A stretch of DNA of 64,000 bases, taken from positions 28,644,001-28,708,000 of the forward strand of contig NC_043010.1 of the NCBI RefSeq assembly GCF_006345805.1. Direction: 5' to 3'. The position numbers were made by a program, and so were the translations under genes. Source of the stretch: Octopus sinensis (lineage: Eukaryota). Numbering within the stretch: position 1 is the stretch's first letter; the number at the start of each line of letters is the position of its first letter. The notes beneath the pieces were generated by a model. It did no database searches, had not been told where the DNA came from, and saw only the letters and a list, made by a program, of their open reading frames with translations. This document shows, piece by piece, positions 32,014 to 60,289 of this stretch.

Positions 32014-32096
32014 CTTTTCTGATGAGAAGATTGCATTTTACACTGCTTATTCCTTTGGAATAAAACCAATGTTGTGTTCGAAACATATGTTGAAAG
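32014..32096 (+). ncRNA. Type I minimal hammerhead ribozyme motif in a short (TA)n-flanked element (~31910-32140)
   Basis: ctttt CTGATGA gaa..catt/aatg..ttc GAAA catatG TT gaaag: stems I-III, intact core, palindromic stem III, GUU cleavage triplet. Confidence 0.75.
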
Positions 32097-32139
32097 TAAA
32101 GAATTTTATAACATCTGCGTTCAACTTCATTTATTTACT

Positions 32140-32195
<56 letters not shown>

Positions 32196-32239
32196 TAGTA
32201 TTTATATGCATATATGTATGTTATATGCATATATATATA

Positions 32240-33234
32240 TCTGGATATATAAAAGGCAATGTAATTTTTGCACATTCACAAATTAGCCCGCATGTCGCTC
32301 CAATTTTAGGAGGACATTTGTCATGATCCCTAGCTGTATTTTCCTTAAATTATTTCCCCCGAAGGCACCAGCAGATACTGGTAATAATAAATTTCCGACC
32401 GTGACTTAACAATTTTCACGGTGGAGAAATCCACCATTGTTTTACAAACAGAAGTTAAGTCCCCTTCTAGCAACGGTGTAAAGAGGGGGACTGAGAGAGA
32501 GAGATAACAGATTTTTAAAATTTCGTCTTTTTACTGTGTGATTGGCAGGCAAAAATAGACAGACAGGTGTTGTTATGTATGTATGTGTGAATGGCTTCGG
32601 TCATACACACACACACGCGCGTGAGCATGTATGCGTAGCATACAAAACACATGTATGCAATGTGTGTGTGAGTGTGTTGCCTGTACATATATATATATAT
32701 ATATATACACAATATAAATGACATTCTCCATTTCTCCACAACTAATTTCCAAATTAGCTGAATTGTTGCTCTGCTCATAGCGATACATAGCTAGTCGTGC
32801 GTGAACATGGGAGAGAACAGAGGTTACCAGAGCAAAACACCTACATGTTGACTGTAGACATGCTCCTTCGCAAACTGTTCATGTTTTCGAAAGGGGAGAT
32901 CTGACTCTTTTCCACCATAATGTCTACCAATTTTGATGTATTTTGTTCAAACTTGATGCCAGCATTACTTAGGACTCATGGGATCTTTGAATGCTTTAAG
33001 CTCTCCAAAAACAAACAAAAAAAACAATTGATGAGTGGAAAAAAAATCAATAAACCGATTCCTAATGGGATTTCCCAATCAAATTGTCTGCAAAATTTCA
33101 GCCAAAATTTTACCAATTTCAACGGGTTTCACTCAAATTTGACGTCGATGTTACTTAGATTGCTTTGAAATAAAGAGCTTGATTAGCTTAATATTCCTAA
33201 CTTAATCACGAGCAAAGCTGGGCTATACTGCTAG
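32240..33234 (+). mobile_element. Non-autonomous Helitron
   Basis: A|TC..atatataaaa start; decayed hairpin cacgagcaaagctggg then tactgCTAG|T. Confidence 0.65.
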
Positions 33235-33242
33235 TATGTATA

Positions 33243-33462
33243 TATAACGGGAAGCTTTATGAAAATAGACAAAAGACGAAGGCAGGTGGAAAACAAACGA
33301 ACAATTGTATTAGTATGGCGCTCAGGAAATATAAATAAAACAAGTCTTTAACGTTTCGAGCCTACGCTCTTCAACAGAAAGATACACAGAGAGAAAAAAA
33401 ACACGGAAAGAAGGAGAGAAAAAAAATGCGTGCAGTAGCTAACGAATCAACATGGCGATCAT
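33243..33462 (-). mobile_element. Short (TA)n-inserted element with variant HHR-like motif at 33345-33382 (related: ~35571-35765, ~59449-59640)
   Basis: Minus: tcttt CTGTTGA A gagc gtag gctc GAAA CGTT aaaga. Copies share gtatta..gctcaggaaa and the overall layout. Confidence 0.65.
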
Positions 33463-56428: not shown

Positions 56429-56520
56429 TTTCACAATGTAAACATTATTTCTCCATCGTTAGATTTCGATATTCGATCATCTAGCTTTGTTCACAAGAAT
56501 GCTCTTCTCTAAGTTTTTAT
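56429..56520 (+). other. Candidate 92 nt exon
   Basis: tcttctgttatttttcag| ... |gtaagg; possible ATG at 56499 (MLFSKFL). Confidence 0.35.
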
Positions 56521-57458
56521 GTAAGGTTAATGTGTAATGTTTGTGTCGGGTGTGTGTGTGTTTTTTATGTATGTTTCTGTAAATGTGTACTGTTTGTGTA
56601 ATGTACGTTACTGGGTTAATGTGTATATGTTTGTGCAATGTGTGTGTTGTTTGGAATTGATGTGTGTGAACATGTTTGTAATTATGTAATGTGTGTGCCT
56701 GTGTAGTTAGTGTTCAAATCACAAGACAGTGGAATTACTATAAGAAATATGATATGTATTTGTGAATGTGTAATATTATCTTGGTACATTGAGTATGACT
56801 ATATAATATAATAATGAACGGTGTGTTTTGGACTGCTGTATGTATTTGTGTGTGTGTGTACATATATATAAATATATGTAGAGAGAGAGATACATAGATA
56901 TATCGATATACACATACATATATGTAATATGTAAATACATTCATATACATATTTACATGCATAAATACATACACATACATATATAGGCATGTATGTATAT
57001 ATAATGTGTATATATATATATAACACACATCCACTAGTGAGAATCCTCCTGATAAATATTGCTTTATAGTTATTACTTGTGCAAAACTATTGATTGTGGT
57101 TAATTAAATACGTTTCTCTTTGTCATTAGGGAATAATAAGCGCGCGCGCACACACACACAGAGTTAAATAAGTATATTTAACTTTATTTAATTATTGGGA
57201 ATACTGAGTAGAAGTGGTCTCAGAATTCCGCAAAGTAGATAACTTAGTGATTCCATGAAATACTGTTAGAGTCACTGAGTTGCAGCTCAGTTAAATGACC
57301 AGTCAGTATTTTCTTTAATTTTAAACATAGTGAAAGTACCATAGTAGCCTAATTGCACATCAGGTGGGGTGAGAATAGAAATGGAAACACTGCTAGATTT
57401 TTTTATTCAATGTATATTTAATGAGTACATGTAGGATGAAACTGTGTGTTATATATAT

Positions 57459-57822
57459 AGGTGCAGGTGTGGCTGTGTGGTAAGAAGCTTGATTCTCAAC
57501 CATATGGTTCCAGGTTCAATCCCACTTGTGACACTTTGGGTAAGTGTCTTCTACTATAGCCTTGGGCCGACCAAAGTCTTGCAAGTGGATTTGGTGAATG
57601 GAAACTTTAAAAAAATCCCATCGTATATATTGCATGTGTGTATGTGTCTTTGTTTGCATCCCTGTAACTTAGCGTTTCGTCAAAAGAGTATGATGGAATA
57701 AATACCAAGCTTCAAAACAAAACAAAAAAATGTTTTGGAGTTGATTCATTTGACTAAAAATTCTTTAAGGCAGTTCCCCAGCGTAGCCACAGTCTAATGT
57801 CTGAAACAAGTAAAAAATAAAA
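57459..57822 (+). mobile_element. SINE family B, full length, diverged
   Basis: ggtgcaggtgtggctgtgtggtaag head, ggttcaatccc B-box, tail ctgaaacaagtaaaaaa. Confidence 0.85.
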
Positions 57823-58004
57823 TATACCATATTTGGTGTATGCAATGCACATCCCCTTCTCCTTACCTAAAAAATGTCTTAAGAAGTTGTCATTGGTCCT
57901 GTGTGCAAAATTGAGCCTCCCATAAGCTCTTTGCCTTGAATATGCTCTATGAAATTGAGGTGCATCTAATATGTCTGTGTGTATTCATCTGGTATGTATT
58001 TAGA

Positions 58005-58325
58005 TGTGTGTTCCAAAGGTCCCAGTTATCCTGTTTAGAGTGAAGACCATGCACTGCAACACCTTGGGATTCAAGGGCCCATAGCCTTGCCAAAACAGCT
58101 GAAGGATCTTCATGGAGAAAGAGTAGATGTTTTCAAGAAACAACTTGACCTATTATCCAAGATGAACTTACATCATGGCAAAAAACTCAAAAGAGAGCAG
58201 CTATGTTGAACCCCTTCCTTCACCAAATGCCAATTGCATAAGAATGGTCATAGAAAAGGTGATTACACTGGCTGTGTCCCAGCATGGTCTCAGCCTTTTG
58301 GCTAAAAGAATAAAAGGATATAAAG
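58005..58325 (+). mobile_element. CR1-group LINE extreme 3' end
   Basis: NTLGFKGP..LPKQLKDLHGERVDVFKKQLDLL...RAA..NP.LHQ, then cccagcatggtctcagcc..ggctaaaagaataaaag. Confidence 0.65.
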
Positions 58326-60289
58326 GAACAGTGATGTAAAGGGACCTTTTTAGTTTTATTAGGAGTGACCTCTCTGGTGTCAGTAGGATGATACATTGCA
58401 CTCAAATAGAGATAGGAAGGGCATCCAACAGTAAAAATCGTGCTCCCACCCACAAAAAAGGCTGATGCCCACAGTAAAAAACATTGGTGCTTGGCCTAGG
58501 GGTTAGGGTGTTGCACTCATGATCACAAGATCATAGTTTCAATTCCTGGACTAGGCAGTGCATTGTGGTCTTGAGCAAAACACTTCAGTTCACATTGCTT
58601 TAGTCCATTCAGCTATAAATGGGTCACCCTGCGATGGACTGGCATCTCCTTCGCAGAAAATGTCACTTATATGCTATGGAAACCAGATAACTAGTGTTAT
58701 GAATCCTAGGACTCAAAGCAGTAATGTTCCTCCCTGGAACATCAACCTTCTGGAATTGTCTCTCTGTTCATGTTTTTCTTACAAGTGTTGATCTGCAACA
58801 AGTTTAAAGGTAACATTAATGGCATTGAGGTTACTGGTCTTGAAGTGCCCTGCAGAGTACAAGGCATTGCCCCGCCAAGCAAAATGAAAAAAAAAAATCT
58901 TATCATGAATGATGCTTTTCTGCTGCTATAGATTTCTCTCATTTGGGAGGTGGTGGTGGTGGGTGCTTTAATTTGTAATCATTTGAAGGTGTAACTGCTA
59001 TCTATTTTCTTTTATCTTATACTTATTTCAGTCATTAGACTGTGGCTTTATTGGAGCACCACTTTGAAAGATTTTACTCAAACAAACTGACTCTAGTACT
59101 TACATATTTTTAAGCCTGGTACTTATTTTATTGGTCTCCTTTGCAGAAACCGCTAATTTACAGGGATGTAAACAAACCAACATCAGTTGGAGTGACAAAG
59201 GTACATGCGTGTGAGTGTGTGTATAGGACTGGCACGAGGAAATACAGGGCTTAATAATTAGAGGAGAATTATCAGTGGGACCCCTACTCTACAGAAGCTG
59301 AAGATTGATGTTTTATGCTTTGTCTGGTATGCCATTATCAGCCAAAAGGCATTGAGGGTTTGAGACTCCACCATTAACCACATCATGGTGTCCTCTGCTC
59401 AAGCATATGCACAGGGCCCAATTTGAACAAATCAGTCTAATTATATATATAAAGTTAATCCAAACAAGGAAGCACAAAAAAACACAACAACGCGAGGACG
59501 TGGAACAAATATAGTATTATTGGATGCTCAGGAAAGAAGGAGGGTTTAACGTTTTGAGCGGAGCTCTTTGTCGGAAACATAGGAGAAGGGAAGACAGAGG
59601 GAAAAAATAGCCAACGGTACACATGCGGTCACATTTTATATATATAATTATATATATACAATGTTATACACGTTTCATGTATCTGTATGTACATGCACAC
59701 ACATACACACAAATGTGTGTATTCAATCTATGCCGGTATAGAAAATAGATACTAAATGATGATGATGTATATGAAACAAATGAAAACTGGAGTTGCTATT
59801 TCATACTCTGCAACTGAAAGATTGTGCAAAACTATTGTTTCTGCTGGATGAATTTCTTTTCTATACCTTTGGATAGCCAGGTGTTTGCAAGAGTGCTATC
59901 TGGATTCCTGGATCTCTTCTGACTTGCTCTACACACACACACACCTTTTCCTTTGTTCAGATCTCTTTCCACTTTTTCTAGAGATATTAGTCACTGTACT
60001 GGAATTTACCACTGGACCAATATATGCCATTTAGTAGACAATGTGATCAGTATAAGCTTTCAGTATCAAATTGCGACTTATAGACTTCCATCCTTTCCAA
60101 AGGACCTTTGAGTTCTCTTTTTTTCACTCCTGGACTGGAGATAACCAGCAACTGTCTAAGGTCCATACATATGTGACCATTGTTAATGCACTTTATAACT
60201 ACAGGGTCAGTAATTTATATTCCAACACCATTACTGTGTTTATGTCTATGGCCAAGATACTTTCTCAGTCTATACATTGGCACAGTTCA

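What the first reader, a model, noticed from the sequence alone, without database searches (positions are those of the whole stretch)
32014..59578. System-level: several HHR-bearing, (TA)n-targeting short retroelement families plus a Penelope partner
Seen: seven HHR or HHR-like motifs within 28 kb (32014+, 33345-, 35662-, 39158-, 42411-, 45770+, 59544-) and a partial one at 44219-. They fall into about five sequence families, nearly all abutting (TA)n, and one is linked to a GIY-YIG ORF. Inference: a microsatellite-targeting Penelope machinery mobilises diverse ~200-270 bp ribozyme RNAs, which may be abundant and under-annotated in this lineage. I cannot confirm novelty without a search.
Basis: partly seen in the sequence, partly recalled or inferred. 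Interest (0 to 1): 0.75.

Follow-up and report, generated by a model that had tools for sequence, protein, structure and literature searches.

The report
Seven Penelope retrotransposon ends with hammerheads
The seven hammerhead-ribozyme motifs are real, and each sits in the end repeat of a different protein-coding Penelope-like jumping gene, a known arrangement; only one family, whose end repeat starts with a tRNA-like stretch that likely acts as an RNA polymerase III promoter, departs from what I found described.

Summary
All eight motifs lie at the stated places. They are not short parasites sharing one Penelope partner. Other genomic copies of each of the seven elements run upstream into their own GIY-YIG endonuclease and, for most, reverse transcriptase: three Neptune families (33345, 35662, 59544), three Hydra (32014, 42411, 45770 with 44219 as its inverted end), one Penelope/Poseidon (39158). 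The window copies are 5'-truncated or solo pLTRs; four of seven have lost core bases. Hammerheads in pLTRs, mostly as single truncated motifs, and (TA)n targeting by Neptune and Hydra are published. Tandem units, which define retrozymes, are rare (3 of 168 loci). Such insertions are common: 40 in 800 kb of evenly spaced sample, roughly 136,000 genome-wide. The 39158 family does not target (TA)n (1 of 28). Its pLTR opens with a tRNA-like box A/box B head, where 12 of 14 copies reaching it stop, so Pol III-driven SINE-like copying is possible but unshown; RNA-seq was uninformative. This scan had already noted both the pLTR reading and that head on other DNA.

The parts
31933..32139 (+). Family A: 3' pLTR fragment of a Hydra-type Penelope-like element; hammerhead 32014-32096 with intact core, palindromic stem III, mutated cleavage base; (TA)n follows at 32140
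   Evidence: (L213 = pLTR, RT with DKT, GIY-YIG, pLTR)
33247..33460 (-). Family B: pLTR of a young Neptune element; minimal hammerhead 33345-33382 whose family core has U at position 6
   Evidence: endonuclease upstream in 13 of 29 other loci; L212, L210
35571..35768 (-). Family C: pLTR of an older Neptune family; decayed hammerhead 35662-35698
   Evidence: (endonuclease followed by a C-like pLTR in 10 of 24 other loci)
39076..39329 (-). Family E: solo pLTR of a Penelope/Poseidon element with tRNA-like head, (AAT)n, predicted ORF start and decayed hammerhead 39153-39200
   Evidence: (29 of 29 other ORF-tail loci continue into the head)
39276..39330 (-). Box A-like (39330-39320) and box B-like (39287-39276) motifs of the tRNA-like head, candidate Pol III type 2 promoter
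   Evidence: box consensus recalled
42305..42552 (-). Family F: pLTR fragment of a Hydra element; decayed hammerhead 42411-42470
   Evidence: (RT and/or endonuclease upstream and F downstream in 13 of 19 other loci)
44089..44260 (-). Family G: inverted 5' copy of the 3' part of the pLTR, holding the partial motif at 44219
   Evidence: (I22)
44265..44440 (.). Unrelated short interspersed repeat inserted into the G insertion
   Evidence: SINE label from recall
44586..45143 (+). Family G: decayed GIY-YIG endonuclease frame with the Hydra CxCX5C linker
   Evidence: no significant Pfam match
45560..46014 (+). Family G: 3' pLTR with intact hammerhead 45770-45886 (long stem II), ending at (TA)9
59453..59635 (-). 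Family D: solo pLTR of a Neptune family, short subfamily with a 16-nt deletion; decayed hammerhead 59544-59579
   Evidence: (L292 = pLTR, RT with DKG, endonuclease tail, 3' UTR, pLTR)
38677..38758 (+).

Best explanation
The seven motifs lie in the terminal repeats (pLTRs) of seven separate protein-coding Penelope-like retrotransposon families, and the window copies are short end fragments likely left when each element's own enzyme copied only part of its RNA. Shown: linkage of each repeat to its own coding body, the clade motifs, the (TA)n flanks, the inverted partners. Inferred, from the published in vitro work on PAc: the protein binds its RNA just past the pLTR, the GIY-YIG domain nicks AT-rich DNA, (TA)n for Neptune and Hydra, and reverse transcription starts inside the RNA; it stops either at random (ladders in A, B, C, F, G) or at the RNA's 5' end inside the upstream repeat (fixed ends in D and E). 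Priming on both strands would give the head-to-head pairs. The hammerheads are predicted to need a dimer or the protein, to ride along uncleaved, and to decay after insertion.
For: Coding parents: B, endonuclease upstream in 13 of 29 other loci, RT with DKG and CX4CXXC linker. A, 4 of 24 by tblastn, one more by translation, full element L213. G, ORF in the window, 5 of 19 other loci, RT piece upstream in L144. E, 29 of 29 other ORF-tail loci run into the head, with RT and GIY-YIG upstream. F, 13 of 19, DKT and CxCX5C. C, 10 of 24. D, one pLTR-ORF-pLTR locus among 20 extended. (TA)n after the 3' end: A 13/24, B 28/29, C 5/9, D 23/24, F 16/24, G 15/16, against 5.4% of random positions. Inverted upstream copy: E 23/29, F 8/24, A 7/24, G 5/19, none in B, C, D. 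E forward copies end about 30-35 nt further than their inverted partners, like the published one-sided tail. Copies span the cleavage site, so templates were uncleaved. Literature: PMC4209133, PMC8557442, PMC11167929.
Against: D's parent rests on one internally deleted locus, and the window-type D subfamily differs from parent-type copies by a 16-nt deletion (25 of 25 against 1 of 14) and two to four other sites; almost none extends upstream (1 of 25 by motif). C's link uses copies only 68-77% like the window copy, and 14 of 24 loci showed no C repeat within the 1.5 kb held. No intact full-length E, C, F or G element was recovered. Family A lacks the Hydra linker. B's (TA)n count is inflated because the query held 12 TA-rich bases. 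All top-hit sets are the best 19-29 of hundreds to thousands of candidates and are biased to window-like copies. Seven insertions in 28 kb exceed the sampled density (1.4 expected, P about 0.0006), though the profiles were built from this window and the region is 1.7 times richer in TA runs.
Confidence: 0.85

Rival explanations
1. Some families (E and the short D subfamily) also spread as true non-autonomous SINE-like elements: a short RNA from the pLTR, for E made by RNA polymerase III from the tRNA-like head, is copied in trans by the family's own enzyme.
For: E: box A and box B in tRNA spacing, found together in no other family; 17 and 20 of 30 ORF-linked heads match them without mismatch; best non-family matches of the head profile are SINE-type heads (25 bits, E 2.4e-5). 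In a set chosen by the 3' part only, 11 of 29 copies start within -4..+5 of the head, one at +14, two pass it, 15 appear shorter. No T4 run in the pLTR or in 1,347 nt of ORF majority (2.6 expected); a T4 about 95 nt past the pLTR in 2 of 3 independent copies. D: 4 of 4 sampled copies that reach the 5' end stop there.
Against: D has the same sharp end without any tRNA-like head, and B has 9 of 30 copies without upstream sequence, so a fixed end does not need Pol III. A small hairpin sits at E's start and could stop the enzyme. No diagnostic base separates 27 solo E copies from 12 ORF-linked ones. Rfam finds no tRNA at E up to 10 in two copies; ARAGORN finds none in 59 loci and only weak calls when relaxed. 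G4 runs are also absent, and other PLE ORFs are mildly T-run poor.
Confidence: 0.35
2. One reading: one (TA)n-targeting Penelope machinery mobilises diverse unrelated ribozyme RNAs, as retrozymes, through cleavage and circles.
For: Short copies dominate: about 5 or 6 of 40 sampled insertions keep coding sequence. Tandem hammerhead arrays exist elsewhere in the genome (L314, L279-281). Retrozymes as PLE derivatives are proposed in bioRxiv 10.64898/2026.07.22.740005.
Against: Seven own parents in three clades; clade-specific insertion habits (inversions only in Hydra and Poseidon families, E off (TA)n); direct tandem neighbours in only 3 of 168 loci; ends do not fall at the cleavage site.
Confidence: 0.07
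3. The motifs are chance matches in AT-rich repeat DNA.
For: Four window copies fail strict descriptors; Rfam gives no hammerhead hit among rows shown.
Against: All seven family majority sequences give the full minimal fold; 46 hits against 2-9 in shuffles; covariation score 0.083, 0 of 500 shuffles, in the Neptune group.
Confidence: 0.02

Closest known systems
Minimal hammerheads in pLTRs of metazoan Penelope-like elements (Cervera and de la Pena 2014, PMC4209133; parts 1-2 of 4 read)
   Same: Type I fold, extra base before stem II, palindromic short stem III, many families per genome, most motifs single and ascribed to truncated PLEs.
   Different: Neptune families here carry fixed core variants (C at position 4 in C and D, U at position 6 in B); G and A have very long stem II.
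Hydra clade PLEs, including Hydra-1_Obim (Craig et al. 2021, PMC8557442; passages, section 11, supplement search hits)
   Same: DKT, CxCX5C linker (F, G), CxxC before the conserved E, hammerhead, (TA)n insertion, inverted 5' copies.
   Different: The hammerhead listed for Hydra-1_Obim differs from A, F and G (compared by eye), so these look like other families; A has an (AAT)n expansion where the linker should be.
Neptune clade PLEs (as defined in PMC8557442)
   Same: DKG, CX2-5CXXC linker, C-terminal GIY-YIG, microsatellite bias.
   Different: Long (CA)- and C-rich 3' UTRs of about 0.7-1.3 kb; abundant solo pLTRs with a fixed 5' end in D.
PAc, Poseidon of Anolis carolinensis (Frangieh et al. 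2024, PMC11167929; parts 1-2 of 4 read)
   Same: ORF starting inside the pLTR near the hammerhead, two 3' end points giving a tail, AT-rich non-microsatellite targets.
   Different: Family E's pLTR begins with a tRNA-like box A/box B head; none is mentioned in the parts read.
Non-LTR retrozymes (Cervera and de la Pena 2020, PMC7229834, passages; bioRxiv 10.64898/2026.07.22.740005, parts 1-3 of 5)
   Same: Size range, type I hammerhead, PLE pLTR ancestry.
   Different: These seven are dispersed, not tandem, and have coding parents.
[quoted passage not shown]
   Same: tRNA-derived Pol III promoter followed by a hammerhead.
   Different: Described as tandem non-coding repeats; family E is the end repeat of a coding Penelope element and forms head-to-head pairs.

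Membership tests
EN+ Penelope-like elements | RT followed by C-terminal GIY-YIG in one ORF | tested here: met
   A, B, D, E, F, G in at least one locus each; C endonuclease with RT pieces in 2 loci whose pLTR lay outside the stretch held
EN+ Penelope-like elements | pLTR on both sides of the ORF or partial tandem | tested here: met
   L213 (A), L292 (D), L206 (E: ORF tail, pLTR, ORF start); not recovered for B, C, F, G
EN+ Penelope-like elements | Hammerhead inside the pLTR | tested here: met
   All seven majority sequences
EN+ Penelope-like elements | RT phylogeny places them with PLEs | not tested
   No tree built; clades assigned by motifs
Neptune (B, C, D) | DKG motif and CX2-5CXXC linker | tested here: met
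   B both; C linker in L244, L246, L260; D DKG only, linker region deleted in L292
Hydra (A, F, G) | DKT motif | tested here: met
   A L213, F L224 and L234; G not reached
Hydra (A, F, G) | CxCX5C linker | tested here: inconclusive
   Present in F and G, not found in A; A is therefore Hydra-like by DKT, RW and CxxC only
Hydra and Neptune | Insertion into (TA)n | tested here: met
   54-97% of 3' ends against 5.4% background
Penelope/Poseidon (E) | No zinc-finger linker before GIY-YIG | tested here: met
   No linker motif in 6 loci searched; DKG region not recovered
Non-LTR retrozyme | Head-to-tail tandem units each with a hammerhead | tested here: not met
   Direct neighbour within 700 nt in 3 of 168 loci
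Non-LTR retrozyme | No coding parent sharing the sequence; abundant linear and circular monomer RNA | tested here: inconclusive
   Coding parents exist; fragmented cDNA libraries cannot show monomers or circles
tRNA-derived SINE (E short copies) | Box A and box B at tRNA spacing at the 5' end | tested here: met
tRNA-derived SINE (E short copies) | Recognisable tRNA ancestor | tested here: inconclusive
   No Rfam or standard ARAGORN hit; weak likeness to SINE-type heads
tRNA-derived SINE (E short copies) | Pol III transcription and copying in trans | not testable with these tools
   Needs 5'-end mapping or Pol III ChIP; no solo-specific subfamily seen
Active hammerhead ribozyme | Self-cleavage | not testable with these tools
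   Four window copies lack core bases; no read-end pile-up at the site, which these libraries could not be expected to show

The most novel reading that the evidence does not exclude
An autonomous Penelope/Poseidon retrotransposon captured a tRNA or SINE head as the promoter of its pLTR and is transcribed there by RNA polymerase III, so that it makes its own SINE: a roughly 370-nt RNA holding promoter, hammerhead, protein-binding region and priming sites, copied into some 27,000 loci (95% range 12,000-54,000), most as head-to-head pairs. It would be a living intermediate between Penelope elements and tRNA-headed ribozyme SINEs such as Sm-alpha.
Probability: 0.35. Interest if true: 0.65.

Novelty: new member of a known kind. 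Interest (0 to 1): 0.3.

Why it matters
The system-level claim reduces to known biology: new families of three known PLE clades. It still shows that pLTR hammerheads number on the order of 10^5 in this genome, so single motifs here should be treated as repeat debris by default. If family E is Pol III-driven, it shows one route by which SINEs and retrozymes arise from Penelope elements and gives a short natural template for testing what the pLTR hammerhead does, which PMC8557442 and PMC11167929 leave open.

Tried and rejected
Rfam scan of the whole window was swamped by microsatellite matches to miRNA models; the repeat finder likewise. Pfam does not recognise the window's endonuclease or the Hydra RT. 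tRNA tests on the E head were negative or weak. RNA: no holder listed as RNA on record. Three raw-read runs of one study, 6% of each read, laid on an E locus gave 7,560-10,972 reads, about equal in both directions, 76-80% running on into unlike sequence, and no pile-up of ends; this fits passive read-through and may reflect an unstranded library, so it is no evidence on Pol III or cleavage. The lay on a D locus barely covered the ribozyme. First pair count was misregistered by one column and redone; that alignment was partly chosen by a core pattern, and only 2 of 9 pairs change on both sides, so covariation is modest. In one search the D query was emptied by a script error; the count was redone with profiles. 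The first descriptor could not see 4-bp stem II motifs; the second missed 32019. Extending 20 D loci found a coding body in one. Whole-element Pol III transcription was considered: T-run absence is weak (P about 0.07) and a T4 lies early in the ORF. No structure prediction or protein database search was run, as clade motifs settled the question.
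Full report
Setting. The window lies in a 2.72-Gb assembly with about 30 chromosome-size contigs.

Observation. All eight coordinates mark an end of a type I minimal-hammerhead-like motif. I call the elements A (32014), B (33345), C (35662), E (39158), F (42411), G (45770, with 44219) and D (59544). Descriptor scans find 2 motifs against 0 in 20 shuffles and 2 against a mean of 0.18 in 100 shuffles. The decayed four are validated by their families: every majority sequence folds into stem I, core, stem II and a palindromic stem III. 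Intact share among nearest copies: A 19/24, B 29/29, C 1/19, D 12/24, E 5/29, F 10/24, G 6/19. In 25 natural Neptune-group motifs stem II is 98% paired and the covariation score exceeds all 500 shuffles, but rests on 2 of 9 pairs.

Each element has its own coding parent. Genome searches returned 371 to 3,896 first-look candidates per element, of which 40 were scored and 20-30 fetched. B copies form a ladder of 5' ends running through a C-rich 3' UTR into a GIY-YIG domain in 13 of 29 loci, three of them near-duplicates; L212 and L210 hold the RT with DKG and a CX4CXXC linker: Neptune. A runs into an endonuclease in 4 of 24 loci by tblastn and one more by translation; L213 is a whole pLTR-ORF-pLTR element with DKT: Hydra-like, though without the linker. 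G is a 5'-truncated Hydra insertion: inverted pLTR piece, an inserted SINE, endonuclease frame with CxCX5C, pLTR; L144 adds an RT piece. For F, C, D and E I walked upstream with a second search. F: 13 of 19 loci have RT or endonuclease upstream and F downstream, with DKT and CxCX5C. C: 10 of 24 have a Neptune endonuclease followed 0.9-1.3 kb later by a C-like repeat. D: 1 of 20 extended loci, L292, is pLTR-ORF-UTR-pLTR with DKG. E: 29 of 29 other loci holding the ORF tail continue straight into the element, and upstream lie RT and a linker-less GIY-YIG: Penelope/Poseidon.

Targets and shapes. (TA)n follows the 3' end in A 13/24, B 28/29, C 5/9, D 23/24, F 16/24, G 15/16 and E 1/28, against 5.4% at random; many remaining A copies continue into the start of the body instead. 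Inverted upstream copies: E 23/29, F 8/24, A 7/24, G 5/19, none in B, C, D; direct tandem neighbours in 3 of 168 loci.

Abundance. Eighty evenly spaced 10-kb stretches hold 40 insertions of these seven profiles or close kin, 50 per Mb, about 136,000 genome-wide (95% range 97,000-185,000). About 5 or 6 keep coding sequence. The window is richer than average (P 0.045 for 64 kb), with 1.7 times more TA runs, and the profiles came from it.

Mechanism. Shown: linkage, motifs, flanks, inversions, copies spanning the cleavage site. Inferred from PAc (PMC11167929): the protein binds RNA in the first part of the ORF, cuts both strands of AT-rich DNA, starts reverse transcription at two internal sites, and does not need ribozyme cleavage. 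A transcript starting in the upstream repeat then yields solo pLTRs with a fixed 5' end, longer copies give truncation ladders, and two-strand priming gives head-to-head pairs with one tail. In E the predicted start codon lies in the pLTR before the hammerhead, and copy ends cluster about 230-240 and 260-268 nt from the head, as that model expects.

The one unusual part. E's pLTR opens, about 40 nt after the stop codon, with box A- and box B-like motifs in tRNA spacing; no other family has both. In 29 copies chosen by the 3' part alone, 11 start within -4..+5, one at +14, two pass into the ORF and 15 appear shorter, some through (AAT)n expansions that break the alignment. The head resembles SINE-type heads in the loci but is not called a tRNA. 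Against Pol III: D has an equally sharp end with no such head, a small hairpin sits at E's start, solo and ORF-linked copies show no diagnostic difference, and RNA-seq shows no ends. I give Pol III-driven short RNA 0.35. D's short subfamily with a shared 16-nt deletion is a second candidate for copying in trans.

Comparison with print. Hammerheads in pLTRs, mostly as single motifs from truncated elements, are in PMC4209133. (TA)n targeting, inverted copies, tails and an octopus Hydra are in PMC8557442. Retrozymes as pLTR derivatives are in bioRxiv 10.64898/2026.07.22.740005 and defined as tandem in PMC7229834. tRNA-headed hammerhead SINEs are known in schistosomes. A tRNA-headed pLTR of a coding PLE did not turn up in searches, which I judged mostly from listings; subscription journals, Dfam and Repbase were not searchable.

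Earlier notes of this scan, read after my own analysis, reach the same pLTR reading in other windows and had noted the tRNA-headed family several times. They are not independent support; one gave the lead to Hydra-1_Obim, which I checked.

Verdict. Observation confirmed, interpretation partly supported. New families of known clades; interest 0.3, carried mainly by family E.

Noticed in passing
window 38677-38758 (+): Eighth hammerhead-like motif with one core mismatch and palindromic stem III, followed by (TA)12; no relative among fetched loci, no genome search left.
   Followed up: partly
L314:2615-5580: 535-nt tandem array, units 100% identical, each with an intact minimal hammerhead, in both orientations and with no PLE ORF beside it: retrozyme-like, or an assembly artefact; a related monomer in L373.
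   Followed up: partly
L279-L281: 608-nt tandem array of family D fold-backs on a small contig.
   Followed up: no
L309-L388: Many further minimal-hammerhead families beyond the seven, several with 40-70 nt stem II arms.
   Followed up: no
window 60287-61062: Near-perfect fold-back with 388-nt arms and a 1-nt centre, no hammerhead core seen, no relative in fetched loci.
   Followed up: partly
L213:1386-1958 (-), L074, L085: Family A ORF has an (AAT)n run read as poly-Asn between RT and endonuclease, where the Hydra linker should be.
   Followed up: partly
family B and C/D majority cores: Fixed non-canonical core bases (U at position 6 in the very young B family, C at position 4 in C and D) while stems stay paired.
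   Followed up: partly
window 11646-12489 (+); 7658-8272 (+); 33844-34638 (-); 40176-40520 (-): Mariner-type transposase fragments (Pfam) and LINE-like fragments (one weak Pfam match, others by recall).
   Followed up: no
window 26183-31327: 5-kb degenerate (TA)n array just upstream of the finding.
   Followed up: no
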